A stretch of DNA of 64,000 bases from a virus: positions 33,059-97,058 of IMG/VR virus record IMGVR_UViG_3300037845_000036, one strand, 5' to 3'. Below, one piece after another: positions 2,596-41,647 of this stretch (position 1 is the stretch's first letter; each line of letters begins with the position of its first letter). Below the pieces are notes generated by a model that saw only the letters and a list, made by a program, of their open reading frames with translations, did not search any database and had not been told where the DNA came from. The position numbers were made by a program, and so were the translations under genes.

Positions 2596-2608
2596 GGTGG
2601 TCTTCCTT

Positions 2609-2815: not shown

Positions 2816-2857
2816 TGCATAACACGTTTCTTGTGTTCACGCTACCTCGGCTTATAC

Positions 2858-5542: not shown

Positions 5543-7338
5543 TGCACTCGCGCCTTCAATTCCTCAATCTCGACTTGCTGCTGCTGAACAGCGTGCCAGA
5601 GAACAGGAACCAACCCCATGTAGTCGAGCCGAACCGGGTTGCCTGCTGTATCGTCTCGCACGAGCGATCCCAACGCCGACACCTTCGCAACGTCCTCCGC
5701 CAAGAACCCAAACTGCTCCCGCTCTCCCCGGTCGCCGTGCTCGCTGTCGTAGCGGAAGTTCTTTGCTGGGATTGCCATGACCTCGGAAAGTCCGGCACTC
5801 ACATCAGCGATACCGCGCTTAAAATGCATCGATGATGTCGTCAAACAGATCCCGCCAGTCCCCGTGCCGTAGTAGAATTGTCCGGTGCTGGTCACATCAC
5901 ACACCGTTGCATCGCTCTGTCCGGTATCGGCCGCAAGAGTCGCCACGAGCGATCCGGCAAGCGTCACGAGGTTGCTGCTAATGTTCCAGGTTAGAACCGG
6001 CGTGAATGATGCGCTTCCGGCACCTCCGCTAGTATTGTATCCCAACGCCGATGTCGAGTTACCCGTTGCCCCAATGCCCATATAATATGTACCTGTCCCA
6101 CCTATTTGAATTGCCATGCTATTGTTGGAAGTAGCTATGGATAATCCCTTGGTCCCGCTGCTTATTGATAAATTACCTCCAACACTAGCATTACCGCCAA
6201 AATTAACAGTCGGCGTAAAATACCACGAATTACTTTGTGTCTTGTTATAGTCCAGCTTGTCCGCGCCGCCCACGGCAACCTCAATCTCACCAGAGGCGGG
6301 AAGAAATATTCCCGTCGTCGCATCGGTCGAGAAGCTATACGTCGGCGCCCCAACCGTCCCACTCGGCGCCGCAAGCTGCGTCGGCAGCGCCGGTGCCCCA
6401 TCCGATCGCGTGAAATTTGAAGATGAGCCGGGCACTGCCGTCCATCCAATCGTTGCAGTCGGATTGGCTCCGCTTGCGCCCGCGCTGTTCGTCCCGAAGA
6501 AATCGAGATGCACGCCATCCGCGTTGGCAACGAAGGTGCCCTGTGCGCCGGGGACAAGCGGCGAGGAAACGCCCGTAAGGGTCAGGCCAGTGTTGTTGGC
6601 CAACGTCCAGTTAGCGGCGCCGTTGTTCGCCACCGCGAGCGACATTCCGGGAGCGAAGATCGTCGAAGACGCGGCCGGGAGGGTGAGGGTGTTGCTCGAT
6701 CCGGTGAGGACGAGCGCGCCAGCCATGTCGGTGGCGGCGACTTGGTAGCTGGATGACTTTGTGTTGTCAGTAAGAATGTTATTAACTGAAGCCGACCCCG
6801 CTGACCCGCCAACAAGAAAGCTATTCCCAAACGTTTCTGTCGTTGTATTCGTAACGCTATGCGTTCCGTCAGTCACAGTGAGGGGACTACTACCCCCACC
6901 GCTACCCCCGCCAGGCCCAGCACCCAACATGGCACCAGACCCGACAGAGATAGTAAGCGTTGTCGTACTAGAGGCGGTGATCGCGGCGATGTATGTGGCG
7001 GCATTGACGGCCAACAAAAAGCAGGTAGGAGATGCAGCGGTTCCCCCCGGTATTGCAAAGTTCGCGGTTGTCGCCGTTACTGTACTTCCACCGAATGCTA
7101 CATATGCAGCATTTGCACCAGTATTGCACACCCACGCTGATGGGGGTGCCTGATTAACAACTCCTACCCATCCCAATGAGACATTACTTGACGTGTTGGA
7201 GACTGACAGGGACGCGCTACTAACCTGTGTCCAACCGGCTGGGTAAGTCGTTACATTTTGATTAGGAGCGGCGCGCGGCGATGCTGATCCCCAGAACAAG
7301 GCTAGGGATACAGCCAAAAAAACGAACAGCCGAGACAT
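5539..7338 (-). CDS. Tail fibre/spike with C-terminal intramolecular chaperone (peptidase S74) and Sec signal peptide
   Basis: TSSMHFKRGI, KNFRY, FGFLAEDV, LDYMGLVPVLWHAVQQQQVEIEELK; N-terminal MSRLFVFLAVSLALFWGSASPRA. Confidence 0.85.
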   Translation of the reverse strand: MSRLFVFLAVSLALFWGSASPRAAPNQNVTTYPAGWTQVSSASLSVSNTSSNVSLGWVGVVNQAPPSAWVCNTGANAAYVAFGGSTVTATTANFAIPGGTAASPTCFLLAVNAATYIAAITASSTTTLTISVGSGAMLGAGPGGGSGGGSSPLTVTDGTHSVTNTTTETFGNSFLVGGSAGSASVNNILTDNTKSSSYQVAATDMAGALVLTGSSNTLTLPAASSTIFAPGMSLAVANNGAANWTLANNTGLTLTGVSSPLVPGAQGTFVANADGVHLDFFGTNSAGASGANPTATIGWTAVPGSSSNFTRSDGAPALPTQLAAPSGTVGAPTYSFSTDATTGIFLPASGEIEVAVGGADKLDYNKTQSNSWYFTPTVNFGGNASVGGNLSISSGTKGLSIATSNNSMAIQIGGTGTYYMGIGATGNSTSALGYNTSGGAGSASFTPVLTWNISSNLVTLAGSLVATLAADTGQSDATVCDVTSTGQFYYGTGTGGICLTTSSMHFKRGIADVSAGLSEVMAIPAKNFRYDSEHGDRGEREQFGFLAEDVAKVSALGSLVRDDTAGNPVRLDYMGLVPVLWHAVQQQQVEIEELKARVH

Positions 7339-23135: not shown

Positions 23136-25283
23136 CTACCCGCTAGAGCGTGTGATGACGCCACTATTGCTCCAGAGCGCGCCGCCAATATGAGGGTCGG
23201 AAGACGGCATAGACGGGATGATAATGAAATTGGACGCCCCCACCGTAATGTAGTACCCATATACTCCCGTACTAATCAGTGCGAAATTCGTATAATCCGT
23301 CGAGTCATATTCAATTTTTGAATTAGTGCCACTGGTGTTCCCCAGATATATCCCAGCCGTCGATATGTTAGTAGAAGCGGGGATCGCTAAACCATATTGC
23401 CAATTTCCACTTACCTGGAATCCATACTGACTCGCAGTTGGGCTGCCCGTACTATTCGCGGTAAACCCATTGGCACTTCCGCCCCCCGGCGCGAACATAT
23501 TTACGCCGGATGAAAGATCGGCGGTGAAAAATGGTAATCCCCCATTTGAACCATCAAACCAACGGTACTGACCGCCATTAGTGCTGCCTAGCCAATCCGT
23601 CCACGCACCGCCACTGGGAGCGCCATTGTTCGTACCATAATTTATCTTAGTTCCGACAAAACCGCTCGCCGACCCCGGCATCACGATACCTTGAGTCGTA
23701 ACCACAGCAGACCCGGCGTCAAGCAGGCTTAGGTATTGAGTCGGACCAGCCGCTCCAAATGCGGCAGTCGCAACATCGCCACCAATATTACCCGCAAGGA
23801 AACTATACGCTAGATGTCCACTGCTGGCAGCGGCATAACTATTATCGACGATGCCCTCAACCCCGAAAAGCGTAAGCGCCTGCGCGAGACTGCCATTCGC
23901 TGCGCTCGGATTGTGTGCTGAGAAAACGTTCCCTCCGTTCCCCGCACCGTATTGGTATGCATCTGCCGTCAACCCAGAAATAATAGGAACTGGACCTTGT
24001 GTTAATACAGTGCCAATCGTAGCGCCCAATCCATATGCATAAAGACCAACGATGTTCTTAGAGGTATTCTGCCACACTCCATCATTCGGCCCGAACGTCG
24101 CGAACCGACCACCATAGTTTGTATGCGGATAGGCATATATTTTGGTATCGCTATCACTGCTTTGCACATAGAGTGTATCTTGGAATGAATTTACCGTGTC
24201 ACCTATTGTGCCAGACAACGGTAACTCAATCGCGTAAGCAGCATTCTGTGTATACGTCGGGAAGAACAATGAGTTATTTGACGGTGCGCCATTGTATATC
24301 CCAGAAAGCACCGCCCCAAAAACTGGGTTGCTCAGAGTCCCCGTGCTGAGCAATGGATAGCCAGAAGCGGCAGGAGCGGCATTCGCTATGCCACCTGTGC
24401 CGTTCCCCAACAACACAGAGAATTGGGGTAAAATCGCGTCACCCGTGCCGCCATTCGGTACAGGAAGTATACCAGTTACACCAGAGGCAAGAACCAATTG
24501 ACCAAACGCCGGATCGCTAGTGGCCCCCTGCGAAAGCAGGGGATACCCAGCCGTTCCGGGAACTGCGAAATTAACAGGTGATGTACCCTCACCCAACAAC
24601 GCAGCGTGAGCGGTAAGTGATGTGCGCCCCGTCCCGCCTTGCCCCACAATCAGCGCCGCCGAGGTATAATAAAACACTTGCCAATTGCCCGAACCAAGCG
24701 CTGTGGCGAGCGCCATATCCCCTGCGCTAGTCGTGATCGTTGAACCCCCTGGCAAAATCAGCGACGTTGAATTGTAAACAAGTTGGGTTGCCCCTGTGAA
24801 AGAGAGAAATTTAACAATCCCCGGCGGGGCGCTTGTGCCAAACGAATAAACTGGACCAGCGCCAGTAATTGTTATCAATGCTTGCGGTGCAGATCCTAAA
24901 TCAGTCGTATCCTGCGCCAATAGCGATGTAGGCAATCCACCGCCAACATTGGTCATCCATATGTTATTGAGGCTGTCGAGATACGCGATGGGCAACCACA
25001 GGCTTTGTCGATTGTCCCAAATATTCAATATGTACGTGGTGGCATTCTGCGGCGTATTCAGCCACAGCGTCCCGAGCGAGGGGTTGGCAGGCGCGGTCGG
25101 CCCCGCATTCATCGATTGCAACGCATTAATGTCGCTCGCAGCGTCACCAAAGTTCTGGCGGATCGGTGCCGCGTTGTATGGGACGCCCTGGACTGGCTGC
25201 GTCGTGTTAATTGAAGACGCGGCGTGCGCCGAAGCGCACACCGCCATCACAAATATTAACGCGAACGCAGTAGCCAGTTTCAT
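23136..25283 (-). CDS. Tail fibre-like protein with Sec signal peptide
   Basis: MKLATAFALIFVMAVCASAHA; GPTAPANPSLGTLW; VGQGGTG/VPNGGTG fibre repeats; PHIGGALW end. Confidence 0.7.
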   Translation of the reverse strand: MKLATAFALIFVMAVCASAHAASSINTTQPVQGVPYNAAPIRQNFGDAASDINALQSMNAGPTAPANPSLGTLWLNTPQNATTYILNIWDNRQSLWLPIAYLDSLNNIWMTNVGGGLPTSLLAQDTTDLGSAPQALITITGAGPVYSFGTSAPPGIVKFLSFTGATQLVYNSTSLILPGGSTITTSAGDMALATALGSGNWQVFYYTSAALIVGQGGTGRTSLTAHAALLGEGTSPVNFAVPGTAGYPLLSQGATSDPAFGQLVLASGVTGILPVPNGGTGDAILPQFSVLLGNGTGGIANAAPAASGYPLLSTGTLSNPVFGAVLSGIYNGAPSNNSLFFPTYTQNAAYAIELPLSGTIGDTVNSFQDTLYVQSSDSDTKIYAYPHTNYGGRFATFGPNDGVWQNTSKNIVGLYAYGLGATIGTVLTQGPVPIISGLTADAYQYGAGNGGNVFSAHNPSAANGSLAQALTLFGVEGIVDNSYAAASSGHLAYSFLAGNIGGDVATAAFGAAGPTQYLSLLDAGSAVVTTQGIVMPGSASGFVGTKINYGTNNGAPSGGAWTDWLGSTNGGQYRWFDGSNGGLPFFTADLSSGVNMFAPGGGSANGFTANSTGSPTASQYGFQVSGNWQYGLAIPASTNISTAGIYLGNTSGTNSKIEYDSTDYTNFALISTGVYGYYITVGASNFIIIPSMPSSDPHIGGALWSNSGVITRSSG

Positions 25284-25552
25284 TTCTTAGGTACCGCGCA
25301 CCCTGGCGCGTCACCGCACCATCCTTTCCAGTATTTGGCTGTTTCCTCAGCTTGCGCACGTGCCGAATTGGCGCTCAACATATAAGCGCGCAACCTCTCC
25401 ATGACGTGCTCTTGCTCATTCATGTACGCCTGCCACTCAGCGCCAAGTTGCGCTTGAGGATCGGGGGCTTGCGGCGCCAATCCCTGCGCCATCACCAACG
25501 CGGGAACCGCAACCAATATCGGCAACAAAATCGAAAGCTTCATCCGCATCAT
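25280..25552 (-). CDS. Small secreted coiled-coil protein (possible fibre chaperone)
   Basis: Signal MKLSILLPILVAVPALVMA; C-terminal Cys pair WCGDAPGC. Confidence 0.55.
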   Translation of the reverse strand: MMRMKLSILLPILVAVPALVMAQGLAPQAPDPQAQLGAEWQAYMNEQEHVMERLRAYMLSANSARAQAEETAKYWKGWCGDAPGCAVPKK

Positions 25553-25561
25553 TTAGTTCCT

Positions 25562-27088
25562 TTAGTTGCAAGAGGTAACAATGCCATTCACGATGACAAG
25601 ATTCGTAAAACCTATATGAAAAGTGCATGAAGCGCCAGTCGCCAACGCTAGCGTTCCACTAGCGGCGGGAAACGCAATGCTGTAATTCGTAGCGCTGGCA
25701 TTCAGGGTGGAAATTGCTGTATATCCCATCGAAGATCCGAAAAGATCAATAGGCATCGTTGCCGAAATAACACCGTTGAACGTCGCGGCACCATCTACCG
25801 TCAACGGCACATTCAAGATATGCACTAACCCTGTACCAAGCGCGGTGATATTAAGATTTTGATTCGTATCGCAAGTGCTTTGCGGTTGAATTGAAGCGGG
25901 GATCGATGTGGCACGCGCAAGAAACAGAATATAATTGCACGCGGTACCGATAGAGTTGAAATTTGCGACCTGATTACCGAGATAATCGTAAACTGCAAGC
26001 GCATTGCCGTTTGAGCCAGTCAGACGGCCGTTCACCAAATCAAAATTCAAGCCGCCATTGCTCAAAAATACCTGTGTGCGTCCAGCTTCGTCGAGAATTT
26101 CGTCTATATATCCATTTTTCCACGCCTGCCCTACTCCCCCGAGATTCCAGATGTCCCCAATCGCGGGAGTAAATGCCGGAAGTGACCCATTTATGGCTAC
26201 TATCTGAGGCGTCCCGTTAACATATACCGACCAATCGCAATCACCGTTCTCTGCGCCCGCAGTAGTCGTCGCCAAACCGCAATTCTGCACGACTCCATTG
26301 ATCTCTGTGGACGCAGCATTGGGCGATGTCCACGTAATCGTTCCCGCCGCACCGTTCATCACTGTATAATTCGTGGCGCTACCGTCAAAAAATGTGCCGG
26401 TCATCGCCAGCGTATTCGACCCGAGTGATGCGCCCCCCAGAGCCAACGTCGTAAAGGCCGGATTAGGACTAGGACCGACAAAGCCAACCTGCCAGCGACC
26501 GCCTCCGAGAGAAAGGGCGATAGTCGAGCTATTAGCCCGCGGTATGTAATTCGCCGAACCCGGCAACTGCATATACGTTGCGTTGTAAACAAGCGTGGGC
26601 GAACCAAGGAAAATCAAAAATTTCATCACGCCAGCGGGCGTAGACGCACCAAATGACGCAATCGATTGCGAGCCAGTTATCTGCACCGCTGCTTGAGGAA
26701 CAGACCCCAAATCCGTTGTCGCCGCACTCAATAAACTCGGAAGTGTCCCGCCCCCTACAGGTGGCTCCCAAATTCCCGTCGATGAATTGATGGACGCGAT
26801 TGGTACCCAGGAATTTGATGCGGGTATCCATATGCTAAGTGCATAAGTGACTCCGCTTGTATTGAGCCATAGCGTTCCGAGCGATGGATTGGCAGGCGCG
26901 GTCGGTCCCGCATTCATTGACTGGAGCGCATTGATGTCGTTCGCAGCGTCACCAAAGTTCTGACGGATCGGCGAAGCGTTGTACGGAACGCCTTGGACTG
27001 GCTGCGTTACGTCAATCGATGATGCGGCATAGGCGGGCACTACCCCGATGGTAATTAGCGCGGTAATAATGCAACGGGTAAGGAACAC
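25562..27088 (-). CDS. Tail fibre-like protein with Sec signal peptide, paralog of 23136..25283
   Basis: Shared N-domain ASSIxxTQPVQGVPYNAxPIRQNFGDAAxDINALQSMNAGPTAPANPSLGTLWLNT; IVNGIVTS end. Confidence 0.7.
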   Translation of the reverse strand: MFLTRCIITALITIGVVPAYAASSIDVTQPVQGVPYNASPIRQNFGDAANDINALQSMNAGPTAPANPSLGTLWLNTSGVTYALSIWIPASNSWVPIASINSSTGIWEPPVGGGTLPSLLSAATTDLGSVPQAAVQITGSQSIASFGASTPAGVMKFLIFLGSPTLVYNATYMQLPGSANYIPRANSSTIALSLGGGRWQVGFVGPSPNPAFTTLALGGASLGSNTLAMTGTFFDGSATNYTVMNGAAGTITWTSPNAASTEINGVVQNCGLATTTAGAENGDCDWSVYVNGTPQIVAINGSLPAFTPAIGDIWNLGGVGQAWKNGYIDEILDEAGRTQVFLSNGGLNFDLVNGRLTGSNGNALAVYDYLGNQVANFNSIGTACNYILFLARATSIPASIQPQSTCDTNQNLNITALGTGLVHILNVPLTVDGAATFNGVISATMPIDLFGSSMGYTAISTLNASATNYSIAFPAASGTLALATGASCTFHIGFTNLVIVNGIVTSCN

Positions 27089-27099
27089 CTCTTACATCC

Positions 27100-28500
27100 C
27101 TAACAGGTATGAGTTGGGCTAGGCGGTGTGCCTACCTGCGACGGCATGAAGCCTGGCGGCCCCCAAAATCCGGGAGTACCCCAAGTCGCTGGCTGAACAG
27201 GGAACGAAACTGGCGACGCATAAACTGGGCTGTTACTCGGCAATGTGTATTCCCAACCGCAGGTAAAATTTGGATTACTGGTTTGCGGATTGCTGTCGCT
27301 GCCTGCGCTCCCCGAAGTCGAGAGCGTACCCGATGTACCATAGTTATAATAATTATTCGGGCCAATCGTACTTGTACCGCAAGGCCCAGTATTGCAGGGA
27401 TAGCCGCCTCCTGAACCACTATTGAGTTTTGCCAATATAAGCGAAGCTGTAAACGAGTTCCCGCTTGGCGTACCACTTTCATTTTGAATAGTCAGGATTT
27501 GCCCACTCGCACCCGTCGAGAGATCGCAGATATTCCCGGTCGAAACGTTATTGCTGCCGCCGTGATAGAAGACGCATGGATATGCGCTACCGCCACCCAC
27601 ACGCTCAACATTGCTCAGAATCGTGAAATTGCTGCTTAGATCGTCAATGTAGATGGCGTTCGCCCCGCCACCCGCCGATCCATCTTGCACGTAATTATAT
27701 TCAATAATTTCGCCACTCTGCGTCTGTGCGCTGTTGTTCTCCATATAGATGCCGCCACAGTCAGAGAATGCAGTCGCGTAGTTGTAGACATAATTGTAAG
27801 CAATCAGGAGATTGTTCGCCCCACCAGAGGTTTGCGGAAATGTCGCAATTCCCATACAGACTGTCGTATCAACACGATTATGAATGATCTGGCCGTTGGC
27901 CGCGTTCTGAGTAACAATCCCAGCGCTGCCCTGCACGCCAGTATCAGTGATATTTGTAACCCAGACATTCTTGATTAATGGCGCACTGCCTGTTGTTTCG
28001 ATCCCGTAGGCCCGATAATTCTCAAATACCAAACCGTTAACCGTTAGGTTATTGGCGGCAGAATAGATTCCACAACCCACCCCACTACTACCACTCGCTC
28101 CGCCATTTATGAACGCCGACAGATACCCATCGGGGGGGTAATAAGACCATATTTCGCCATTATCTGCCGTCGTCAGATCAAGAATCGAAGACAGACTTCC
28201 ATCACAATCCGTGCCAGTCCCGCTAGGCGCATAGGTACCTGCGCGGACATAGCAAGTTTTGATCGTGCTCGCGCGCATCGCTGTTTGACATTTTCCAAGG
28301 GTTTGGAACGGTGCGGCAAGTGTGCCAATATTGCTGTCACTGCCTAACGGAGACACAACAAAGCCGGGAGGCAACGGCGCAGGACGCGTGCGTGAATACA
28401 GCGACGATTTAGCGCGCGCCCCAACATCGATCGTGGCACCAGCAAAAACGGGTGCCGCAATGCCAAAGACAAAAAATAGACAGGCAACGATACGTTTCAT
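27100..28500 (-). CDS. Right-handed beta-helix (pectin-lyase-like) tailspike/depolymerase with Sec signal peptide
   Basis: VSPLGSDSNIGTLAAPFQTL, YVRAGTY, DCGGIY, AIYIDD; signal MKRIVACLFFVFGIAAPVFA. Confidence 0.75.
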   Translation of the reverse strand: MKRIVACLFFVFGIAAPVFAGATIDVGARAKSSLYSRTRPAPLPPGFVVSPLGSDSNIGTLAAPFQTLGKCQTAMRASTIKTCYVRAGTYAPSGTGTDCDGSLSSILDLTTADNGEIWSYYPPDGYLSAFINGGASGSSGVGCGIYSAANNLTVNGLVFENYRAYGIETTGSAPLIKNVWVTNITDTGVQGSAGIVTQNAANGQIIHNRVDTTVCMGIATFPQTSGGANNLLIAYNYVYNYATAFSDCGGIYMENNSAQTQSGEIIEYNYVQDGSAGGGANAIYIDDLSSNFTILSNVERVGGGSAYPCVFYHGGSNNVSTGNICDLSTGASGQILTIQNESGTPSGNSFTASLILAKLNSGSGGGYPCNTGPCGTSTIGPNNYYNYGTSGTLSTSGSAGSDSNPQTSNPNFTCGWEYTLPSNSPVYASPVSFPVQPATWGTPGFWGPPGFMPSQVGTPPSPTHTC

Positions 28501-28503
28501 CGG

Positions 28504-29001
28504 TCAATAATCTGCGCAAGAGATCACGGCATTTACAACGGTTGACGACGTTAGGTTGGTCGCAAAGGTCATCTGCACTGTGTCGCCACTGATCAGCCGC
28601 AGAAATGGATTGCCATCACTATTGAGCGGCAACCCAACCCAGATTGTCGGCGCGAACAAATTCATTGGCGGGACACCATTGGCAAAGCCCGCGCTTGCCA
28701 CGGTCGTAACTGCTGTTCCACCATATTTGACAGTGCTATTCACGATCTGCACTGTAATGAGATGCGTCGCGCTCCCGTCATTGGTTGTCAGCCACAAAGC
28801 GCTACAATCGGAGCCATTTGACCCCGCCGCATAGAGAGTCTTATACGTGCCCGCGCTATCGGTACCCTGAAGAAATTGGACAACGCCCCGATTAGGCGTC
28901 TGCGGCGTAACCGGACTGTTTGGTGTGACCGCAGCGCTCGCCGGTAATGCCAGTAGCGACAAAAACGCAAGACATAACAAGAAACGACGGAACATTATCA
29001 A
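28504..29001 (-). CDS. Small beta-sandwich structural protein with Sec signal peptide
   Basis: [26 protein letters not shown]; TYKTLY; C-terminal ADY. Confidence 0.65.
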
Positions 29002-32000
29002 ATCCCTCCATAAACAGCGTGCGTGATCGTTGCTGTTGCAGCCTGTATCGCCTTAACTGCCAATGTATTAATTGTTGTAAAGGTTGCCGCACCCGGCACC
29101 GCCCCGCCAATAGTGCCTGGCGATGCAAAGGTAGCTCCGTTCAAGCTCGATGCATTTAGGTTCGCAACGTTTGTTGTACTGCTTACCGTAAATGGCGCTG
29201 TCCCCGTCGAAACAGTAGAGGTAAACGTTACGCAATTCAGGCTTGTTGTATTAGTTGGCAACACGCACGCTGGCGTACCACCAGAATTCAATAAGGTAAG
29301 ATCGTTTACGCTGCCCTTGCCTATAAGAGTGAGACCGCCCGTTGTAGATGTTAAGTAAATATCACCTTCGCCATTCGCAGCTAAGGTCGGGGCGCTCGCC
29401 TCGCCACCAATCCCGAGCGTGCCTGCCCCTTGCGTCGGCAAGGTCGTTCCCGTAACCGCCTCATAACCTGTTACGGTAACGCTAGTCGAAGCCGTCAACC
29501 CGGAAATCGTTGGGTTTGTCCCGCCTACAGGTGAACCCGATCCCGTAGCGTTTCCCCCCAGCAACGTAGCAACGCCTGTACCCAACCCACTCACGCCAGT
29601 AGAAATCGGCAGACCTGTCGCATTAGTTAACGTGCCAGATGCCGGCGTACCCAACGCAGGAGTCGTCAAGGTCAAATTCGTTGCCGCAAGCCCGCTCGGC
29701 AGCGTAGTTGAAATAGAAGGCACTCCAGAAGCCGATGTCACCAGCACACCGCTGTTCGCGGTAGCCAAATTCCCCAAGACACCCGCATTATCGTAAAGTA
29801 ATCCTTTTGTCGTTCCGCTTGAAATCGTAGTTGTGCCAACGGCGATGCTTGATGCAGCGGCACCAACTGCCGTGATAACGCCGCCAGATGCGGTAATCGT
29901 CACGTTATCGACTTCAACCACACCGAACGCACTCGCAGATCCTTTTGCGACCGTAATCGCACCAGCGGTGTCCGTAATGATCGTCCCATCAGGCTTCACA
30001 CAACCAATCTGTGATGAGGTTGCCGTCGTGCAAGCGATAGTCCCAGCGGTTATTGTAAGCGTTGAACCGTCGCCCTGCAGGATGCCCTCGGCCACACTCG
30101 TGCCAACGGGCAGCCCGACGTAATTCCCGGCTGTAACCGACCCTGAAACATTCAGAGATGTGCCCGTTGCCGCGCCTAGAACTGGCGTAACAAATGTCGG
30201 CGTTGTAGTGCCCGCTGGCCCACCTGACCCAGACGCAGTACCGCTCAATAATGTCGCGACCCCCGTGCCGAGACCGCTAACACCCGTTGAAATCGGCAAC
30301 CCCGTAACATTGGTCATTGTTCCCGACGCGGGGGTACCCAAAACGGGTGCGGTCATCGTCGGTGCCGTAAGGGTCTTATTTGTTAATGTCTGAGTAGCCG
30401 CCAGCGTAACGACCGTCCCCGTAGTGCTAGGGAACGTCATTGTTGTTCCATCGGTCCCAGCCAATGTCAATGAATTGCTGAATGTTAGCGTTTTCCCGGC
30501 ACTGCCCGTTAATGTATAGGTTCCTGTCGTAAATGCATTTCCGTTTATGCTTGTCGCTGTTGCCACTCCTAAAGATGGCGAAGTCAGCACCATATTACTC
30601 GCAGAAAGACCACTTGGAAGCGCAGTAGAAAACGATGGAACACCACTTCCGTTGGCGCTTAAAACACCATTATTCGTAGTAACGATATTGCCTAATGTCC
30701 CCGCATTGTCATAAAGAATCGCGTTACTAGTTCCACTAGTAACCGTCGTCGAACCAACCGCGATGCTCGTGAGTGCCGACCCTACGGCGGTAATCACACC
30801 CCCCGAAGCCGTAATGGTGGTCCCGTCCACCTCCACAACCCCAAACGTACTAGACGAGCCTACTGGCAATCCGACATAGGTTGACCCCGTAAGCGTCGTA
30901 AATGTGCCCGCAGCCGCGACCGTTTGCCCAATCGCTGGCGGAGAAGCGAATAGATTAAGAATGCCATTTCCGCTCACCGTTCCTGAAGCTGCCAGCGTCG
31001 TAAACGATCCGGTCGATGGCGTTGTGCTGCCCACAGCGGGCGGCGACGCGAACAATGCCGTGAACCCCGCACCACTAACCGTTGAAGATGCCGATAGAGT
31101 CGTAAATGCACCCGTCGATGCCGCAGAACTTCCAATCGGACCAGGCGAAGCAAAACGCGCTGTAAAGCCGCTACCACTCACGGTGCTCGACGCGGCAAGG
31201 GTTGTAAAAGCCCCGGTAGAGGGTGCCGTTCCGCCAATCGCAGGAGGCGAACCAAACAACGCAGTGAATCCCGCACCACTCACCGTTGATGATGCCGACA
31301 ATGTGGTAAAAGCACCCGTTGACGGTGTAATCGCCCCCACGGTCCCGTCAAACGACCCCGTAGCCGCCACTAGCGCGGGGCCGTTCGCCAAAACGACACT
31401 CCCGCTGCCCGTTGGCGTGACCTGTCCTAACAGCCCCCCCGTCGCTTGGCTGATAATATAACCATCCGTCCCGCCGCTAATCGTCGTCGTTCCCACCGCC
31501 AGCGCTGTTGCCGCCGCAGTCACCGTGCAGCTAGACCCCAGCGTGCATGTTTGCCCATTTACAGTCGTCGCTGGATTTTGCAGATCCGTGTTAGTGACCA
31601 GCCCAGGCGCAGAAAATGACGAACCCAGAGTCAATCCCGCAAAAGTCGGACTATTCGCGACACCCAACCCCAAATTGTTTAAGGCAGCCGGCAACACGGC
31701 ATTTGAAGCCGTGACATTCATCTGCCCGCCAGGGACAGCATTCGCCAGAACAAATGCTGTCGTCGCCAATTGTGTTGTATTGGTCCCCAAGGGCGCGGTC
31801 GGAGCGGTCGGGGTACCTAAAAATGCGGGGCTGGTCTGAAATGCAAATGCCCCAGTCCCCGTGGCTGTCGCGATGAGATGATATGTCACCCCACCGCGCA
31901 CGAGCGGCAACAAGTCGCCCGCACCCAATTGCCCCGCGTTAGGGGCGTTCATTATAAATTTAGCCCAATAGTCGCTCGTAACCTGCGCAGACCCCTCGCC

Positions 32001-32051
32001 CGCACAGCACGCCAACATCACAAAACTGAGAACTGCCCCCCAGCGCCGCAC
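28998..32051 (-). CDS. Long tail fibre with Sec signal peptide and Ser/Thr-rich repeats
   Basis: [56 protein letters not shown] fibre motifs; signal [22 protein letters not shown]. Confidence 0.8.
30890..31340 (-). repeat. About 105-bp (35-aa) coding repeats [30 protein letters not shown], 4-5 copies
   Basis: Visible in the translation of 28998..32051. Confidence 0.8.
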
Positions 32052-36428: not shown

Positions 36429-36914
36429 TCAGGTATCTGCCAACTCATCAGCGTCCGCGCTATGCGCAGTACCCTGTCGTGCGCGGGCCGCACTCGATAG
36501 CGGAGTCATATCCGCTCCCACACCGCCGCCGCGCTTGCGACCAGGGCGATCGAGGCGCCGATGTTTGGTCTTGTGACCCTCCATCTCGACATGCTTCATC
36601 GCCATGCCGCCTTCCTTGCGCTCTTTGACATGGCCGCCACGGGCGCGACGAACCTTGCCACCCTTCGCGCGCATCTTGCCTTCCGCCTCTTCTTCTTCTT
36701 CGTTCGGCTTGGCGGTATAGGACTCCATACCCTTGATTGAGTCTTCCTTCACTTCGCCTCCTTTCTCATAGTGATGATGATGAACCTCATCATGATCACC
36801 GTGATGGGCGACGTGGTGCTTGCCGTCGTGATGGCTGACAGACCCACCTTCCGCGCGCATAGCGTGGTGGCCCATGTGTGCCTCAGTCGGACGATAATGA
36901 TGGCCGCGTGCCAT
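36429..36914 (-). CDS. His/Arg-rich internal protein with six xGG motifs
   Basis: RAEGGSV, YEKGGEV, RAKGGKV, RARGGHV, RKEGGMA, RKRGGGV; AAGGAG RBS. Confidence 0.7.
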   Translation of the reverse strand: MARGHHYRPTEAHMGHHAMRAEGGSVSHHDGKHHVAHHGDHDEVHHHHYEKGGEVKEDSIKGMESYTAKPNEEEEEAEGKMRAKGGKVRRARGGHVKERKEGGMAMKHVEMEGHKTKHRRLDRPGRKRGGGVGADMTPLSSAARARQGTAHSADADELADT

Positions 36915-37032
36915 GGTTTCGCTCCTTCCTTCGCCCCGCAGGGCTATTCGGCGATCCGCGCCGCCGGTCTCGCGATTGAAACGCCGCGAGCGGCTGGGAC
37001 CCGTCCCCGAAGGGGCGAGCTTCGTAGCGAGC

Positions 37033-37257
37033 CTACTTGTTGCTCGCTTTCTCCGCCAACATCCCCGCTATCGAAGCTTGGATATCACGGAAATGGTAAT
37101 CAAAAGGAAATATTGCCACCGTTTTGTTCACTGCCTCAATAATCGCTTCACGCGAATGCTGATGTCCGTCCACCACACTAGCCAGCATAAACTCGGCTCG
37201 CATATCCGATATGGCAAACGCCATCCCGCACCCGAACCACGTTCCCCACCAGCACAC
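37033..37257 (-). CDS. Small TM-anchored helical protein overlapping the ligase end (possible split C-terminal part)
   Basis: VCWWGTWFGCGMAFAISDMRAE...AIFPFDYHFR; start uncertain. Confidence 0.45.
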   Translation of the reverse strand: MCWWGTWFGCGMAFAISDMRAEFMLASVVDGHQHSREAIIEAVNKTVAIFPFDYHFRDIQASIAGMLAEKASNK

Positions 37258-38197
37258 CAGCCAAAAAGGCTGTCGCCGGAAGATGTAGCGGGAACGCTGT
37301 AAGGTATTGCGCCCCAATACAAACCAGCGCTGCCTTGACGGGGATCGTGTCTGCCCAACGAGCGGCCAATCCGAAGAGGGCCACAAGGGGCAGCGCGCCG
37401 ATACCCATCTCATAGAGCGACTGAAGGAAGTCACTATGCGCCCGCTCCCAGCTAGGATACGTCGTCACGAAACTCCCTATCCCGTGCCCAAATATAGTAA
37501 TCCCCGCAGCGGTTGTATACCAGATATCAAAACGCGCCGCAGCCGATGCGCCCTTACTCGCCCATAGCGTCGCGAAGCCAGCCGCCATTACCAGCGCGCC
37601 AACACCCCAGAAGGCAATTTCACGCCGGCTCACCAGCAGTCCTAGACCAGCGCTCAGCAACGCCACACGAGAACCGCAAAACGCTAGCGGGATGCTCAGC
37701 GCAATTACGAGCGGCAAAGCTTCCACATAAAACGCATAGACAAACAGCACAGCCGCAATTTCCGCAAGGAAGTCACCATTGAAGAACAACCCCGCCGGTC
37801 CAGCAAACTCCGCGACCGGATGCCACCCCAAGAGTTGCCCGATCGCAAAGGCGCTCGATACCGCGACACCCCACCCCATCGCGCGCAGAACCGAATCAAG
37901 ATCCTCGATATTCGCGCCCAACAACACCGCGCCCGCGAACAGCACGAGCCAGCAAAAGTCATTCATTCCCGATAGCTGAACAGGCGTCCACAGCAGCGAC
38001 AGCGCGGCATACGCCACCATCGCCGCGACTAAAATCTGTGCTGTTCGGGAAAGTCTGCGCGGGTCCAACCAAGACGCCAGCGGCATACCCGCCGCCATCA
38101 GACTCCAGCGCGGAGCCGTCGCAGACGACAAGATGTTTGGCCAGAACGCTGTTGCTACACCAAATCCTAGGAGCGCCGGTCTGTTAAGACTGATCAC
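37178..38197 (-). CDS. O-antigen ligase (Wzy_C) / PglL-like oligosaccharyltransferase
   Basis: Polytopic; GLFFNGDFLA, GSRVALL, SAAARFDIW, FGHGIGSF, RAHSDFLQSLYEMG, FPLH; likely GTG start at 38197 (GTGA overlap). Confidence 0.85.
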   Translation of the reverse strand: MISLNRPALLGFGVATAFWPNILSSATAPRWSLMAAGMPLASWLDPRRLSRTAQILVAAMVAYAALSLLWTPVQLSGMNDFCWLVLFAGAVLLGANIEDLDSVLRAMGWGVAVSSAFAIGQLLGWHPVAEFAGPAGLFFNGDFLAEIAAVLFVYAFYVEALPLVIALSIPLAFCGSRVALLSAGLGLLVSRREIAFWGVGALVMAAGFATLWASKGASAAARFDIWYTTAAGITIFGHGIGSFVTTYPSWERAHSDFLQSLYEMGIGALPLVALFGLAARWADTIPVKAALVCIGAQYLTAFPLHLPATAFLAGVLVGNVVRVRDGVCHIGYASRVYAG

Positions 38198-38787
38198 TGT
38201 ACCGTCACGCCCGTCAGGTATTCGGTTGAAGCACCGCCCGCATTCGTAACCGCCGCCGAGAACGTCAGTGTCAGATACGAACCCGGCACCAAAGTCGCGC
38301 CAGTCAGCGTCACATTCTGTGTCGTCGGCGTCGTAATTGGGCAAACCACCTGCCCCGAAGCGATCAACGTCGAACCCTGCGTTCCCGCAGTCGTATTATT
38401 CAAATACGCCGCAGCCGTCATTGTATGAACAGAAGCCGTGCTACTGCTGTTGGCGTAATAGCACAAAATCCCAACCGTCAGATTGTTGCCGGGGTTCTCG
38501 TAAAATGGCACCACGTAATCGTAAGACGCGACATTCGATGTCGAACCCGAACTCGTTGCAGTCCCAATCAAATACGTGCCTGTGCCGGGCGTGTAGACCA
38601 AGCCAAAATTCGTGCTGCTCGCCGAACCCGTCATCTGAAGACCCGCAACGGTCTTCATGTTCGCCATGACGAGCGGGATAGCCGGCGGTGCCGCAACAGT
38701 CAGCGTGTCGGTATAAATCGCCGCCCACGCGAGCGGGGCAACCGCGACAGCAAACCAACCGGCAAGGGCGAGGCGTTTTAGCTTCAT
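38194..38787 (-). CDS. Secreted Ser/Thr-rich beta-sandwich protein
   Basis: Signal MKLKRLALAGWFAVAVAPLAWA; one Cys pair; coupled to the ligase gene. Confidence 0.7.
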   Translation of the reverse strand: MKLKRLALAGWFAVAVAPLAWAAIYTDTLTVAAPPAIPLVMANMKTVAGLQMTGSASSTNFGLVYTPGTGTYLIGTATSSGSTSNVASYDYVVPFYENPGNNLTVGILCYYANSSSTASVHTMTAAAYLNNTTAGTQGSTLIASGQVVCPITTPTTQNVTLTGATLVPGSYLTLTFSAAVTNAGGASTEYLTGVTVQ

Positions 38788-38797: not shown

Positions 38798-39757
38798 CTA
38801 AAAGTCCGCAAATTGCGTTACACCGCATAAACCTGTCGCAGTGCCCATATTGCCGACACCGACATGATCATAAAGCACCAACCGGCGCACCCCATTCGAG
38901 GCCGTACCCTGTAGCGCGTAAGTTCCACGCACATCGCCAGTCGTCGCCGTCGCCGGACTTGTCGTATCAGCCACAGTAAAGCCCGTGGGTGAGGCCACAA
39001 GCGTCGTATCCGGCCACCAAATCGTCGCGAACTGAAAGTGATCAATCCGCAGGAAAAACCCATACGTGTCGCTCTGCCCCGCACTCACATTCGATCCCGA
39101 CAACGTGCCCGCAGGCGTAATCGACAGGATGTACTTGAACGCCTTGTTTCCCGTCGCTGTCACGGCGTTCGACCCGGTGATGGTCTCCGTCATCGGATAG
39201 TTGTAAAGATCAAACCCGCGAACCGTAAAGGTCGCCGCCGAATCATTACCCACCGACGCGATCGAAACCGCCCGCGCAACCGCCGTTCCCGGCGCCCAAA
39301 AGATATTCCCGCCAACCGACGCATTCTGCTGCGGTACCTGCGCCGCATCGATCAACAGCAGCCCCGTTACCGTCGCCCCGGTATCCGCCCGCGTGATCGA
39401 TTGACCAACCGTAATCCCGCCACCCGAGGTCGTTACCAGCGTCAGCGGCACGCCCGCGCTCGGTACCTGCGCCGCCGCCATCGATGTCGTGCTCAGCGTC
39501 GTCGGAACCGCATTCAGGCACTCAAAGCGCCCCATGCCCCACCAACCATACGCACCACGCTCCCCTTCCGCCAACCCGCCCGCCGCCGCACCCGGCGAAT
39601 AGCAATACGGCTTGCGCGGGTCCATGATCCCGCAACCCTGATCCCACAGGCTCGGCGAACGCGATCCGTTGTAATCCGACGCCTGACCCAATCCCTGGCC
39701 CGATGGCACACTCTGGCCAAAGCCAACAAACGGACCCTTGTGTGCAGTTATGCCCAT
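38798..39757 (-). CDS. Structural (head decoration/spike-like) protein
   Basis: MGITAHKGP start; GNKAFK; ADTTSPATATTGDVRGTY; GVTQF end; follows the capsid gene. Confidence 0.65.
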   Translation of the reverse strand: MGITAHKGPFVGFGQSVPSGQGLGQASDYNGSRSPSLWDQGCGIMDPRKPYCYSPGAAAGGLAEGERGAYGWWGMGRFECLNAVPTTLSTTSMAAAQVPSAGVPLTLVTTSGGGITVGQSITRADTGATVTGLLLIDAAQVPQQNASVGGNIFWAPGTAVARAVSIASVGNDSAATFTVRGFDLYNYPMTETITGSNAVTATGNKAFKYILSITPAGTLSGSNVSAGQSDTYGFFLRIDHFQFATIWWPDTTLVASPTGFTVADTTSPATATTGDVRGTYALQGTASNGVRRLVLYDHVGVGNMGTATGLCGVTQFADF

Positions 39758-40143
39758 TAGGAGGCGTCCTTCTTCAGCGGCACCACGTTCGTCCGTGCCG
39801 CAAATGATTCGAGATACTCTGCAGCAGCGAGAAGAAGCTCGGGGTTATCTTTGAAATATCCCAAACCGGGATTGCAATTCGTGCAGCAAAGACCCCTCAC
39901 CGAATGTCGCCCCCTTCCGCGAGAATGATCGTGATCCACCGCTAACCACTTAGTCTGCCCATTCCGTTGTGCGGTTTCCGGTTCCTTACAGATTGCACAT
40001 ACGCCATTTTGGGCAACAAGCATATCCTGATATTCAGCAAGCGTGATCCCAAGCCGCCTGTCCGCGAGCGATTGCGTGGGCAGCCACAAAAGATGCTTCA
40101 CGCTCACTTGCAGCGGCGACACCATACTCCTCTGCTGCCGCAA
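39757..40143 (-). CDS. Endonuclease VII-like domain (possibly a frameshifted tail of the upstream HNH gene)
   Basis: GITLAEY..QNGVCAIC, LAVDHDH, VRGLCCTNCN.GLG. Confidence 0.75.
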   Translation of the reverse strand: MRQQRSMVSPLQVSVKHLLWLPTQSLADRRLGITLAEYQDMLVAQNGVCAICKEPETAQRNGQTKWLAVDHDHSRGRGRHSVRGLCCTNCNPGLGYFKDNPELLLAAAEYLESFAARTNVVPLKKDAS

Positions 40144-40597
40144 TAAAAGCTGCCGCCGCCTCTTCTTTTGTAGAAAACCTTCCGAGATGCTTCAGTTTAT
40201 AGTCGCGCGTGATCGTCGCCAACCACTTCCCCCGCGCCGCATCCCACGTAACACCACGACTCCCGCTCTTATTCCCCTTGCGTAATCCGCCCTTTCGAGC
40301 CGTTTCCGCAGCGGTTTGCAATTTCAGATTTGATAAACAAAGATCAAGATAGTCGCCGTTTTCTGGCGCAACGTTACCCTCTGGCCATTCGCCATATGTA
40401 ATCGCCCATACAATACGGTGGGCCAAAACACGATAGCCATCTACGCCGACATAGAGCCGCCCGTTAGCGGCTACAGCGCCAGCTTCATCGCCGATCCTAA
40501 TCCGATGTGAGGTTGATGTTTTCCACGTCAACCTGCCCGCATGCGGATCATAAGAAAACAGTTCACGAAGGCGTTCAACAGGAATAGCGCTCGTCAT
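40034..40597 (-). CDS. HNH endonuclease with AP2 domain
   Basis: RLRELFSYDPHAGRLTW, AHRIVW, NKSGSRGVTW..KWLATI..HLGRF; upstream TTGACG-17-TAACGT promoter implies ATG start at 40597. Confidence 0.8.
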   Translation of the reverse strand: MTSAIPVERLRELFSYDPHAGRLTWKTSTSHRIRIGDEAGAVAANGRLYVGVDGYRVLAHRIVWAITYGEWPEGNVAPENGDYLDLCLSNLKLQTAAETARKGGLRKGNKSGSRGVTWDAARGKWLATITRDYKLKHLGRFSTKEEAAAAFIAAAEEYGVAAASEREASFVAAHAIARGQAAWDHAC

Positions 40598-40732
40598 CTC
40601 CACGGCTCCTGGATACAGGTTGGCGATGACGTGTACGTTACTCACTTTTTCTCCTGTCGTCAACAATAAAATTTCACATAGCCTGACTAACTTTCGGTAT
40701 TTACCCTAGTATTAACAACCACTTGCAAGTGG

Positions 40733-41647
40733 TTATGAAGTAGGATACGTTCCAAAAGTTGCGCGGGGATTGTAATACGAAAGTGAATAGCGCTCGTACC
40801 CCTTGCACAGGAGGTTGTCGGTCGAGAATTCAACTTCCATACTCATTTCAAACGGGATACGCTCCATATATGCTAGCCCCGGAACATTCGTCAAAAGGAA
40901 CCAAGCATAGGGCGAGGTCAAGAAGTCATCGACAAAGTAACCTTCTTTCAGACCACCAGTTGTCGAGCGGATAGCATTGACATCGTTATCGCCGGTACCG
41001 GGCCGCATCGGAGTTTCGAGTAGTCGAATGGCGACTGGCTCAAGCTCAGGCGGGATGAGCAGCATCTTGCCACGGGCGTACTGCTTCAAATTCGCCTGAT
41101 CGACGAACTGGCGACGGATGCTGATCATGGCCGAGAGCAACGAAGTCTCGGAAAGATCGGTCGCAGTCGTGAAAGCATTGGCGTAAGATCCGCCATCGAT
41201 CGGATGCGCGGTTGAGAACAACGGCTGGCCATCGCCACCGACTGCAGCGTTGTAGACGTTGCCGAGGTTGAAGACGCTGGCTGCGTAGATTTCCTTAGTT
41301 TGATTGAAGGATTCCTGCAGGCCGAGGTTCGAGGGATTGAATTGCGTCTTGTAGAGATTGTCGTCGATCGCGGGACGAGTGATCGCGTAACCGAGCGAGA
41401 TTTCCAGATGTGATTGATTCCAAACGAATCTCTCACCCGCCCTATTGTCGAAAAAGGCGGTTCCGCCCTCAGTCTTCAGACGAGCGAGCGGCAAATAGCG
41501 GTTTTCCGCCGTGCGCTCAACCGCCTGTTCCGACTTGATGTATTGGAAGATCTTGTCGTACTGACGGGGGATCTGCTGGTATTTCCCGGTAACGGCTCGC
41601 AGGCCAGGGAACAGCAGGTCGCGGATCTGTTGAAGTGCTACCGGCAT
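40733..41647 (-). CDS. Major capsid protein (HK97 fold)
   Basis: LLFPGL, KTEGG, LGYAIT..IDDNLY, GGDGQPLFSTAHP, DLSETSL, LLIPPEL, ERYS. Confidence 0.9.
   Translation of the reverse strand: MPVALQQIRDLLFPGLRAVTGKYQQIPRQYDKIFQYIKSEQAVERTAENRYLPLARLKTEGGTAFFDNRAGERFVWNQSHLEISLGYAITRPAIDDNLYKTQFNPSNLGLQESFNQTKEIYAASVFNLGNVYNAAVGGDGQPLFSTAHPIDGGSYANAFTTATDLSETSLLSAMISIRRQFVDQANLKQYARGKMLLIPPELEPVAIRLLETPMRPGTGDNDVNAIRSTTGGLKEGYFVDDFLTSPYAWFLLTNVPGLAYMERIPFEMSMEVEFSTDNLLCKGYERYSLSYYNPRATFGTYPTS

What the first reader, a model, noticed from the sequence alone, without database searches (positions are those of the whole stretch)
37178..38197. O-antigen-ligase/OTase gene embedded among head genes rather than in a moron locus
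It retains the R..IW, GHG.GSF and AHSD motifs. It has no visible promoter of its own and is joined by a GTGA overlap to a secreted Thr-rich protein, so it should be expressed late. Serotype-converting LPS genes are usually expressed from the prophage, so late expression favours a virion-protein substrate or receptor masking at lysis (inference).
Basis: partly seen in the sequence, partly recalled or inferred. Interest (0 to 1): 0.8.

Follow-up and report, generated by a model that had tools for sequence, protein, structure and literature searches.

The report
Phage WaaL-like glycan transferase cassette
An uncultivated 97-kb phage carries, as an add-on inside its late head-gene operon, a small membrane enzyme of the kind bacteria use to attach ready-made sugar chains outside the cytoplasm. 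The enzyme gene is fused to a gene for an exported sugar-binding-like protein, which hints, without proof, that the phage sugar-coats its own exported proteins.

Summary
Its start overlaps (GTGA) the stop of a gene for a signal-peptide, Thr/Ser-rich protein.

- **Fold and family:** the best structural match is the O-antigen ligase WaaL (Z 19.9). The direct Pfam Wzy_C match is below threshold, but 7 of 13 homologues match Wzy_C. The family is large, unnamed and mostly viral.
- **Accessory cassette:** 80 loci with a 64-91% identical capsid gene and 12 whole related records lack the gene. Partner plus enzyme, about 1.8 kb, sit directly after a conserved head-module gene and before a conserved intergenic element. 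It is therefore a promoter-less moron inside the late operon.
- **No glycan synthesis:** the phage has no glycosyltransferase, flippase or priming enzyme, so any donor must be a host lipid-linked glycan.
- **Exported neighbours:** in other phage lineages the enzyme gene also lies next to signal-peptide proteins (21/62 against 9/234 in controls). However, ligase-less relatives export fibre-like proteins too.

Best reading (0.45): a late-expressed periplasmic O-oligosaccharyltransferase acting on exported phage proteins. LPS remodelling is the main rival. This scan has noted similar modules on several other genomes.

The parts
37178..38197 (-). WaaL/PglL-superfamily (Wzy_C-type) membrane glycan transferase, 339 aa, about 12 TM helices. 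The periplasmic loop at residues 210-255 carries R222, the GHGIGSF motif and H254.
   Evidence: Translation. Homologue alignment A1 with invariant residues. 7 of 13 homologues hit PF04932. AF2 model pLDDT 85.6. WaaL 7TPG/7TPJ is the top structural match.
38194..38787 (-). Partner gene: a 197-aa exported protein. It has a Sec signal peptide (residues 1-22), a short Ala/Pro/Thr linker, then a jelly-roll beta-sandwich of the carbohydrate-binding-module or fibre-tip type with a conserved Cys pair (C109, C149).
   Evidence: sequence, start. (34 homologues, conserved C-terminal domain). (fold). (Cys pair).
38194..38197 (-). GTGA overlap: the enzyme's start codon GTG overlaps the partner's stop codon TGA.
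37035..37177 (-). AT-richer 3' tail of the inserted cassette (GC 0.47, GC3 0.33). It is probably non-coding. A 47-codon frame is open here but has atypical composition.
36915..37034 (-). Conserved intergenic element (short hairpin, then ACCGGCGGCGCGGATCGCCGA, then a GAAGGAG ribosome site). In relatives it directly follows the 319-aa gene. It marks the downstream edge of the insertion.
   Evidence: DNA alignment A5.. The fold is not significant (z -1.29).
38798..39757 (-). Conserved 319-aa head-module protein with no signal peptide. The cassette starts 10 nt after its stop codon.
   Evidence: 1044 homologues.
36429..36914 (-). Conserved 161-aa His-rich protein. In relatives it is the gene that directly follows the 319-aa gene.
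40733..41647 (-). Major capsid protein. It served as the anchor for finding related phages.
   Evidence: phrog_371. (146 relatives at 64-91% identity).
39757..40666 (-). Two homing-endonuclease-like genes (HNH/AP2 and endonuclease VII) between the capsid gene and the 319-aa gene. They are present in only some relatives.
23136..32051 (-). Block of six signal-peptide, Ser/Thr-rich proteins (715, 90, 508, 466, 165 and 1017 aa) with weak tail-spike or structural matches. They are candidate further acceptors (inference).
3975..7338 (-). Three further signal-peptide proteins: one GDSL-like (weak match), one twin-Arg-like, and a 599-aa protein with a Peptidase_S74 fibre chaperone domain.

Best explanation
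The gene encodes a compact member of the WaaL/PglL/Wzy_C superfamily. These are membrane enzymes that take a glycan pre-assembled on undecaprenyl pyrophosphate and transfer it en bloc on the periplasmic face.

In this phage it is the second gene of a promoter-less accessory cassette (exported CBM-like protein, then enzyme). The cassette was inserted right after a conserved head-module gene and ahead of the conserved intergenic element, so it is made together with the late head proteins (inferred).

The phage makes no glycan of its own, so the donor is a host lipid-linked glycan (inferred).

The most likely acceptors are Ser/Thr residues of exported phage proteins. The first candidate is the translationally coupled partner. 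The other roughly nine signal-peptide fibre- or spike-like proteins are possible further acceptors. On this reading the enzyme works like a dedicated O-oligosaccharyltransferase encoded next to its acceptor (inferred from context).

Shown here: the fold, the motifs, the coupling, the insertion, and the absence of glycan-synthesis genes. Not shown: the transfer itself, the donor, the acceptor, and the timing.
For: - **Fold:** WaaL 7TPJ at Z 19.9 over 295 residues, against about 10 for SEDS proteins. Foldseek E 2e-5.
- **Family:** 7 of 13 homologues hit Wzy_C. R177, R222 and H254 are invariant or nearly so. R222 pairs with E. coli WaaL R288. R288, R215 and H338 are functional in WaaL and conserved in PglL (PMC3643930). 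A conserved Glu (E263) recalls PglL E404 and PglS E379 (PMC12800693); this equivalence was not aligned here.
- **Topology:** from the model's helices, all conserved motifs lie on one face and the Arg/Lys-rich loops on the other.
- **Coupling:** GTGA overlap with a signal-peptide protein.
- **Partner export:** in the partner family, 11 of 12 members with a signal peptide keep the Cys pair, against 1 of 4 without one. This fits real export to an oxidising compartment.
- **Context elsewhere:** in at least four other phage lineages with different capsid families, the enzyme gene lies in or next to the head or packaging genes and next to signal-peptide Ser/Thr-rich proteins. The heuristic signal-peptide rate is 21/62 for neighbours against 9/234 in control viral loci (p 9e-10).
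- **No glycan synthesis:** no GT2, GT4, Wzx or priming transferase in this genome, and no GT2 in five other carriers.
- **Lifestyle of carriers:** four complete carriers have no tyrosine or serine integrase. This argues for a role in the lytic cycle.
- **Precedent:** O-OTase genes commonly sit beside their acceptor gene (21 of 31 pglL homologues, PMC3643930).
- **Insertion:** upstream of the conserved intergenic element.
Against: - No glycosylation, donor or acceptor has been measured.
- WaaL, O-OTases and some Wzy cannot be told apart by sequence or fold (PMC3643930).
- The PglL_A and Wzy_C_2 motifs are absent.
- The partner-enzyme pair is not fixed. 14 viral loci with the partner's domain have no enzyme nearby.
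- Complete ligase-less relatives also encode 12-13 signal-peptide proteins, including homologues of this phage's. Exported proteins therefore do not need a phage-encoded enzyme.
- The signal-peptide calls come from my own heuristic, and the loci are not phylogenetically independent.
- Late timing is inferred from gene order only.
Confidence: 0.45

Rival explanations
1. WaaL-like ligation onto a lipid acceptor. Late in infection (or in lysogeny) the enzyme ligates a host Und-PP-glycan onto lipid A-core or another envelope lipid. This remodels the cell surface to mask the receptor, block superinfection, or stop progeny sticking to debris. On this reading the exported lectin-like partner acts on the same surface glycans.
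For: - The only solved structure that matches strongly is WaaL.
- The length and the roughly 12-TM layout are closer to WaaL than to the longer PglL or PglS, which carry extra C-terminal domains (PMC12800693).
- The PglL-specific motifs are absent.
- The cassette is accessory, as expected for a host-range or exclusion add-on.
- The partner has a carbohydrate-binding-module-like fold.
Against: - The NCBIfam RfaL model is not matched.
- The host already has a ligase if it makes O-antigen, so the gain is unclear.
- It does not explain why the enzyme gene repeatedly sits beside exported Ser/Thr-rich proteins in unrelated phage lineages.
- Surface remodelling minutes before lysis gives little time to act.
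Confidence: 0.25
2. Wzy-type polymerase for serotype conversion, as in Pseudomonas phage D3 (Wzy-beta). It would be expressed from a prophage and change the O-antigen linkage.
For: - Known phage Wzy_C genes are of this kind: D3, phi297 and the VarioGold VG_p25 moron, which also sits beside a signal-peptide protein (PMC9658991, PMC4815439).
- hhalign to D3 Wzy-beta is slightly better than to E. coli WaaL (E 0.0011 against 0.38).
- This genome has a tyrosine recombinase.
Against: - No match to any of 50,697 deposited phage genomes. The hhalign probability is only 20%.
- In D3 the gene is antisense to the late genes, beside iap, oac and the integrase. Here it is co-oriented and coupled inside the head operon.
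- Four complete carriers of the family have no integrase.
Confidence: 0.1
3. Passenger gene with no functional tie to its neighbours. On this reading, envelope-related accessory genes simply accumulate at the same permissive insertion points of late operons, and the enzyme's target is unrelated to the exported proteins (or the gene is decaying).
For: - The cassette is absent from all sampled relatives.
- The partner family occurs without the enzyme.
- Homing endonuclease genes lie next door, which shows that this stretch tolerates insertions.
Against: - The reading frame is intact and all family-invariant residues are kept.
- Composition is ameliorated to the phage (GC3 0.63).
- The start-stop overlap implies co-translation.
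- The enrichment of signal-peptide neighbours recurs across lineages.
Confidence: 0.1

Closest known systems
WaaL O-antigen ligase (Cupriavidus metallidurans WaaL, PDB 7TPG/7TPJ; E. coli WaaL)
   Same: Same fold over nearly the whole protein (Z 19.9, 295 residues aligned). Arg/Arg/His set on the periplasmic loop. By homology, an Und-PP-glycan donor.
   Different: About 17% identity. 339 aa against about 400-420 aa, with a shorter periplasmic loop. No match to the RfaL model. Encoded in a phage late operon beside an exported protein, not in an LPS core operon. The acceptor is unknown.
O-oligosaccharyltransferases encoded next to their acceptor (PglL, PglS-ComP, TfpO/PilO-PilA)
   Same: Same superfamily and catalytic residues (PMC3643930, PMC12800693). 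Co-oriented and adjacent to a gene for an exported protein. No glycan-synthesis genes of its own.
   Different: Lacks the PglL_A and Wzy_C_2 motifs. It is much shorter. The neighbour is not a pilin but a lectin-like beta-sandwich. It is phage-borne. Activity is untested.
Serotype-converting phage Wzy genes (Pseudomonas phage D3 Wzy-beta; Variovorax phage VarioGold VG_p25)
   Same: A phage-encoded Wzy_C-type membrane protein acquired as an accessory gene. VG_p25 also neighbours a signal-peptide protein (PMC9658991).
   Different: No detectable BLAST similarity. Those genes lie in morons antisense to the late genes, near the lysis and integrase genes, and are thought to act in lysogeny (PMC9658991). 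This one is coupled into the head operon.
Mycobacteriophage virion O-glycosylation (Che8, Corndog, Myrna); cited from my own knowledge, not checked here
   Same: A phage decorating its own proteins with sugars.
   Different: Those systems use soluble cytoplasmic glycosyltransferases on cytoplasmic capsid and tail proteins. Here the enzyme faces the periplasm and could only reach exported proteins.

Membership tests
Wzy_C / O-antigen-ligase superfamily (Pfam PF04932) | Match to the PF04932 profile above its gathering score | tested here: inconclusive
   This protein gets no hit in hmmscan. A six-frame search gives 15.3 bits against a cut-off of 31.7. However, 7 of 13 full-length homologues match, the best at 1.3e-12.
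Wzy_C / O-antigen-ligase superfamily (Pfam PF04932) | WaaL-type polytopic fold | tested here: met
   AF2 model pLDDT 85.6. 7TPG Foldseek E 2e-5, TM 0.62. 7TPJ Z 19.9, rmsd 4.1 over 295 residues, next-best Z about 10.
Wzy_C / O-antigen-ligase superfamily (Pfam PF04932) | Conserved Arg, Arg and His of the periplasmic loop (E. coli WaaL R215, R288, H338) | tested here: met
   R177 is nearly invariant. R222 and H254 are invariant. R222 aligns with WaaL R288. R and H align with D3 Wzy-beta. The roles of these residues come from PMC3643930.
WaaL (lipid A-core O-antigen ligase) | Match to the NCBIfam RfaL model | tested here: not met
   No hit for this protein. One of 13 homologues scores 0.042.
WaaL (lipid A-core O-antigen ligase) | Ligation of O-antigen to lipid A-core | not testable with these tools
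   Needs complementation of a waaL mutant and LPS gels.
PglL-type O-oligosaccharyltransferase | PglL_A (PF15864) or Wzy_C_2 (PF11846) motifs | tested here: not met
   None of the 13 family members matches at E <= 0.1. TfpO/PilO also lacks these motifs (PMC3643930), so this does not exclude OTase activity.
PglL-type O-oligosaccharyltransferase | Gene adjacent to and co-oriented with its acceptor protein's gene | tested here: inconclusive
   Start-stop overlap with an exported Ser/Thr-rich protein. The same kind of neighbour occurs in other lineages. Acceptor status is unproven and the partner family varies.
PglL-type O-oligosaccharyltransferase | Transfer of glycan to Ser/Thr of a protein | not testable with these tools
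   Needs co-expression and glycoproteomics.
Serotype-converting phage Wzy (D3 Wzy-beta type) | Sequence relatedness to known phage Wzy genes | tested here: not met
   tblastn against 50,697 phage records gives no match at 1e-3. hhalign to D3 Wzy-beta gives probability 20%, covering the core motif only.
Serotype-converting phage Wzy (D3 Wzy-beta type) | Moron locus transcribed apart from the late genes, with iap and oac partners | tested here: not met
   D3 layout. Here the gene is co-oriented, overlaps the upstream gene, and lies upstream of the conserved intergenic element.

The most novel reading that the evidence does not exclude
These phages build the outer layer of their particles outside the cytoplasm. 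Fibre-, spike- and lectin-like proteins would be exported by Sec, disulfide-bonded and O-glycosylated with host glycans by the phage's own WaaL-like transferase, and would join the DNA-filled particles only at or after lysis. The enzyme would then be an optional upgrade that lets the phage coat these proteins in hosts whose own machinery does not.
Probability: 0.15. Interest if true: 0.9.

Novelty: new variant of a known kind. Interest (0 to 1): 0.6.

Why it matters
En-bloc glycan transferases of the WaaL/PglL type are known as bacterial envelope enzymes. In phages they are known only as serotype-converting Wzy genes expressed from prophages.

Here a large, unnamed and mostly viral clade is wired into late structural operons beside exported proteins. 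That would be a new way for phages to use host glycan pools. Possible uses are sugar-coating their own exported proteins, for stability, camouflage or adhesion, or re-dressing the dying cell's surface.

The compact enzymes may also interest glyco-engineers who use O-OTases to make conjugates.

For this genome, the work shows that the gene is an accessory cassette and not part of the conserved particle-building set. It also shows that the clade's unusual exported fibre-like proteins exist without it.

Tried and rejected
The contigs of the closest enzyme homologues (102,791, 93,543 and 73,180 bp) could not be read. Their kinship was inferred only from equal contig lengths.
- **Two scans of genome contigs** found no relative, so no host or prophage context was obtained.
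- **A profile of 13 homologues against PDB sequences** found no WaaL. Only the fold search did.
- **hhalign to single sequences** of E. coli WaaL and D3 Wzy-beta is too weak to place the protein.
- **A real phylogeny against characterised WaaL, PglL, TfpO and Wzy** was not possible. No reference O-OTase sequences were reachable, and the superfamily is too divergent for a trustworthy tree.
- **A conserved partner-enzyme pair** was rejected. The partner's domain occurs in 14 viral loci without the enzyme, and other enzyme loci lack this partner.
- **Flanking repeats or the genome's TTAA-N6-TTAA sites** at the cassette borders: none.
- **A structured RNA or terminator in the 263-nt gap**: z -1.29, not significant.
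- **Foreign composition of the cassette**: none.
- **The 47-codon frame at 37034-37176**: GC3 0.33, probably not coding.
- **Literature searches** found no description of such a phage module.

Full report
**What is there.** The feature is a minus-strand gene at 37178-38197. A search of 5.8 billion proteins gave 12 homologues of 28-57% identity. In their alignment R222, W226, G237, G239, H254 and E263 are invariant, R177 and D256 are nearly so, and the homologues begin where the GTG at 38197 begins. The start overlaps the stop of the upstream ORF in the sequence GTGA.

**The upstream partner.** The upstream protein most likely starts at ATG 38787, 10 nt after the stop of the preceding gene and behind a GGTGA. 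Its N-terminus has a basic start, a 16-residue hydrophobic core and an AWA|A cleavage site. The protein is 25% Ser+Thr.

**Family and fold.**
- Pfam, PHROGs and NCBIfam give no significant hit for the protein itself. A six-frame search with PF04932 gives 15.3 bits, below the cut-off of 31.7.
- Seven of the 13 aligned family members do match Wzy_C, the best at 1.3e-12.
- An AlphaFold model built on the alignment (pLDDT 85.6) matches the WaaL O-antigen ligase far better than anything else. Foldseek gives E 2e-5. VIA-align gives Z 19.9 over 295 residues, with the related SEDS proteins next at Z about 10.
- Weak profile alignments pair R222 with E. coli WaaL R288. They pair the R, H and acidic positions with D3 Wzy-beta.
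- R215, R288 and H338 are the functional residues of WaaL and are shared by PglL (PMC3643930). A catalytic His, arginines and a Glu are also proposed for PglS (PMC12800693).
- Reading the model's helices with the positive-inside rule puts all conserved motifs on one face, the periplasmic one by homology. This is inference.

**Size and origin of the family.** A profile search of 1.84 billion cluster representatives found 1,154 proteins at E <= 1e-30. The best 150 are all 303-451 aa and nearly all align almost end to end. The two nearest ESM-Atlas clusters are unnamed and 100% viral. Sampled members come only from metagenome assemblies and carry no names. No deposited phage genome has a detectable relative.

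**Genomic setting.** The window is the 3' two-thirds of a 97,058-bp IMG/VR record that CheckV rates 92% complete. On the minus strand the order is as follows:
- large terminase, then portal;
- several genes, then the major capsid protein;
- an HNH/AP2 endonuclease and endonuclease VII;
- a 319-aa protein, the partner, and the enzyme;
- a 263-nt gap, then a 161-aa His-rich protein;
- tail-side genes.

**Main new result: the cassette is accessory.**
- The capsid gene has 146 close relatives in IMG/VR, at 64-91% identity.
- None of the 80 loci fetched contains the enzyme or the partner. That includes none of the 28 loci with at least 4.5 kb downstream of the capsid gene.
- None of 12 whole related records has the enzyme anywhere. 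Five of these are at least 90% complete, and three have terminal repeats. The positive control on the window's own genome gave 7.6e-134.
- In the closest relatives (capsid 89% identical) the 319-aa gene is followed, after about 120 nt, directly by the 161-aa gene.
- That intergenic stretch is a short hairpin, then ACCGGCGGCGCGGATCGCCGA, then the ribosome site. It is conserved in the window immediately upstream of the 161-aa gene.
- The window therefore has an extra roughly 1.8 kb, from 38797 down to about 37020. It holds the partner, the enzyme and an AT-richer tail, and lies between the 319-aa stop codon and the conserved element.
- The cassette has no flanking repeats. It has none of the genome's TTAA-N6-TTAA sites. 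Its composition is not foreign.
- It is thus a promoter-less moron. Because it lies upstream of the conserved intergenic element, co-transcription with the capsid-to-319-aa stretch is the simplest reading (inference). The sigma-70 scan is uninformative.
- One closer relative probably shares it. A 102,791-bp NCBI contig holds a 71%-identical 319-aa protein, and a contig of the same length holds a 51%-identical enzyme.

**What the enzyme could use.** The genome has no GT2, GT4, Wzx-type flippase or priming phosphoglycosyl transferase. Five other carriers have no GT2. Any donor must therefore be a host lipid-linked glycan (inference).

**What it could act on.** The active site faces the periplasm, so proteins of a cytoplasmically assembled virion are out of reach. 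Only exported proteins or envelope lipids qualify.

**The recurrent context.**
- I fetched 20-odd other loci with family members.
- In one lineage the gene directly follows terminase and portal, which belong to the same PHROG families as the window's.
- In two others it follows a major capsid gene of a different family. In a fourth it precedes a terminase.
- In most loci with enough flank it is next to, and co-oriented with, one to five genes for signal-peptide, Ser/Thr-rich proteins of 130-830 aa.
- With my simple signal-peptide heuristic, the rate among same-strand genes within three positions is 21/62. It is 22/230 for more distant genes in the same loci, and 9/234 in 24 unrelated viral loci (Fisher p 9e-10).
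- The loci are not independent and the heuristic is crude, but the effect is large.
- Three complete carriers and this window devote 17-21% of the residues encoded by their genes of 80 aa or more to such proteins.
- Four complete carriers lack tyrosine and serine integrases. This argues that the family works in the lytic cycle. This genome does have a tyrosine recombinase.

**The partner.**
- It has 34 homologues of up to 75% identity. They share a conserved C-terminal domain of about 155 residues and have variable N-termini, mostly signal peptides.
- The model (pLDDT 75.6) is a jelly-roll beta-sandwich. It resembles carbohydrate-binding modules (Z 11-12). It also resembles the C-terminal domains of phage fibres, minor tail proteins and S74-bearing proteins. 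This fold is common and does not fix a function.
- Two cysteines are kept in 11 of 12 members with a signal peptide, but in only 1 of 4 without one. This is a small hint that the signal peptides are used.
- The pairing is not fixed. 14 viral loci with this domain have no enzyme nearby. In two of them the domain ends a roughly 518-codon frame.

**The wider oddity.**
- The window has about ten signal-peptide proteins. Nine were found by the heuristic, and the partner adds one.
- Among them are a 599-aa protein with a Peptidase_S74 fibre chaperone domain and proteins with weak tail-spike and structural matches.
- Two proteins, of 715 and 508 aa, share an almost identical stretch of about 50 residues after the signal peptide, as alternative receptor-binding proteins do.
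- The complete, ligase-less relatives G007 and G008 have 13 and 12 such proteins. These include signal-peptide-bearing homologues of those two.
- Export of fibre-like proteins is therefore a trait of the clade and does not depend on a phage-encoded enzyme. This weakens any obligatory link.

**Weighing.**
- The fold and residues fit WaaL, O-OTases and some Wzy equally well. The literature says these cannot be separated by sequence (PMC3643930).
- Context is the only discriminator available. Coupling to an exported protein, the repeated neighbourhood of exported Ser/Thr-rich proteins, and the lack of glycan genes resemble dedicated O-OTases beside their acceptors. I put this reading at 0.45.
- LPS or surface remodelling gets 0.25, a D3-like polymerase 0.10, and an unrelated passenger 0.10.
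- Known phage Wzy_C genes (D3, VarioGold) sit in morons antisense to the late genes and are thought to act in lysogeny (PMC9658991). This one differs in wiring and is not detectably related.

**Earlier notes of this scan.** A first-stage note on this genome listed the signal-peptide genes, and I re-derived the list. Follow-up reports on at least six other genomes describe the same kind of module and reach the same tentative reading. These are unchecked AI notes and are not independent evidence. What this window adds is that the cassette can be optional within a clade, and that the clade's exported fibre-like proteins persist without it.

Noticed in passing
window 3975-7338 and 23136-32051 (minus strand): Nine proteins in the fibre and spike region start with classical signal peptides. 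They include a 1017-aa protein with 30% Ser+Thr and one with a Peptidase_S74 fibre chaperone domain. Complete ligase-less relatives (G007, G008) have 12-13 such proteins too, so export of fibre-like proteins is clade-wide.
   Followed up: partly
window 23136-25283 and 25562-27088: After their signal peptides, two proteins share an almost identical N-terminal stretch of about 50 residues and then diverge. This is the pattern of alternative receptor-binding proteins that dock to one site.
   Followed up: no
window 50231-53125: The large terminase is 964 aa. Residues about 100-360 match helicase or primase PHROGs instead of terminase, so there may be an inserted or fused domain, or an intein-like element.
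   Followed up: no
window 39757-40666: HNH/AP2 and endonuclease VII genes sit between the capsid gene and the 319-aa gene. Only 21 and 27 of 80 related loci have them, so they look like mobile homing-endonuclease insertions.
   Followed up: partly
window 36915-37034; L065 12883-13000 and relatives: An intergenic element of about 100 nt (short hairpin plus ACCGGCGGCGCGGATCGCCGA plus ribosome site) is conserved between phages whose flanking proteins are only 38-55% identical. Its function is unknown. It has no T-run, and the fold z-score is not significant.
   Followed up: partly
window 38798-39757: The 319-aa protein downstream of the capsid gene belongs to a very large viral family (1044 hits at 1e-10). 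It is far more variable than the capsid: 38% against 89% identity in the closest IMG/VR relatives. It may be a surface-exposed head protein.
   Followed up: partly
window 38194-38787 and its homologues (alignment A3): Family members without a signal peptide start exactly at the window protein's predicted mature N-terminus (MALYTDTLTV against A|AIYTDTLTV). They lack the second cysteine of the conserved pair.
   Followed up: partly
window 36429-36914: A 161-aa protein that is extremely rich in histidine (runs such as HHHHYEKGG). It is conserved directly downstream in relatives.
   Followed up: no
G000:C1:4729-5241 (outside the window): A tyrosine recombinase (PF00589, 60 bits). The phage may therefore be temperate, or may use it for something else.
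   Followed up: partly
window 1280-3415: Read from the sequence only: a membrane protein, a lysozyme-like protein (…IGWGHT…) and a protein with an N-terminal anchor and an Ala-rich helix. This looks like a holin-endolysin-spanin cassette, which would mean a host with two membranes.
   Followed up: no
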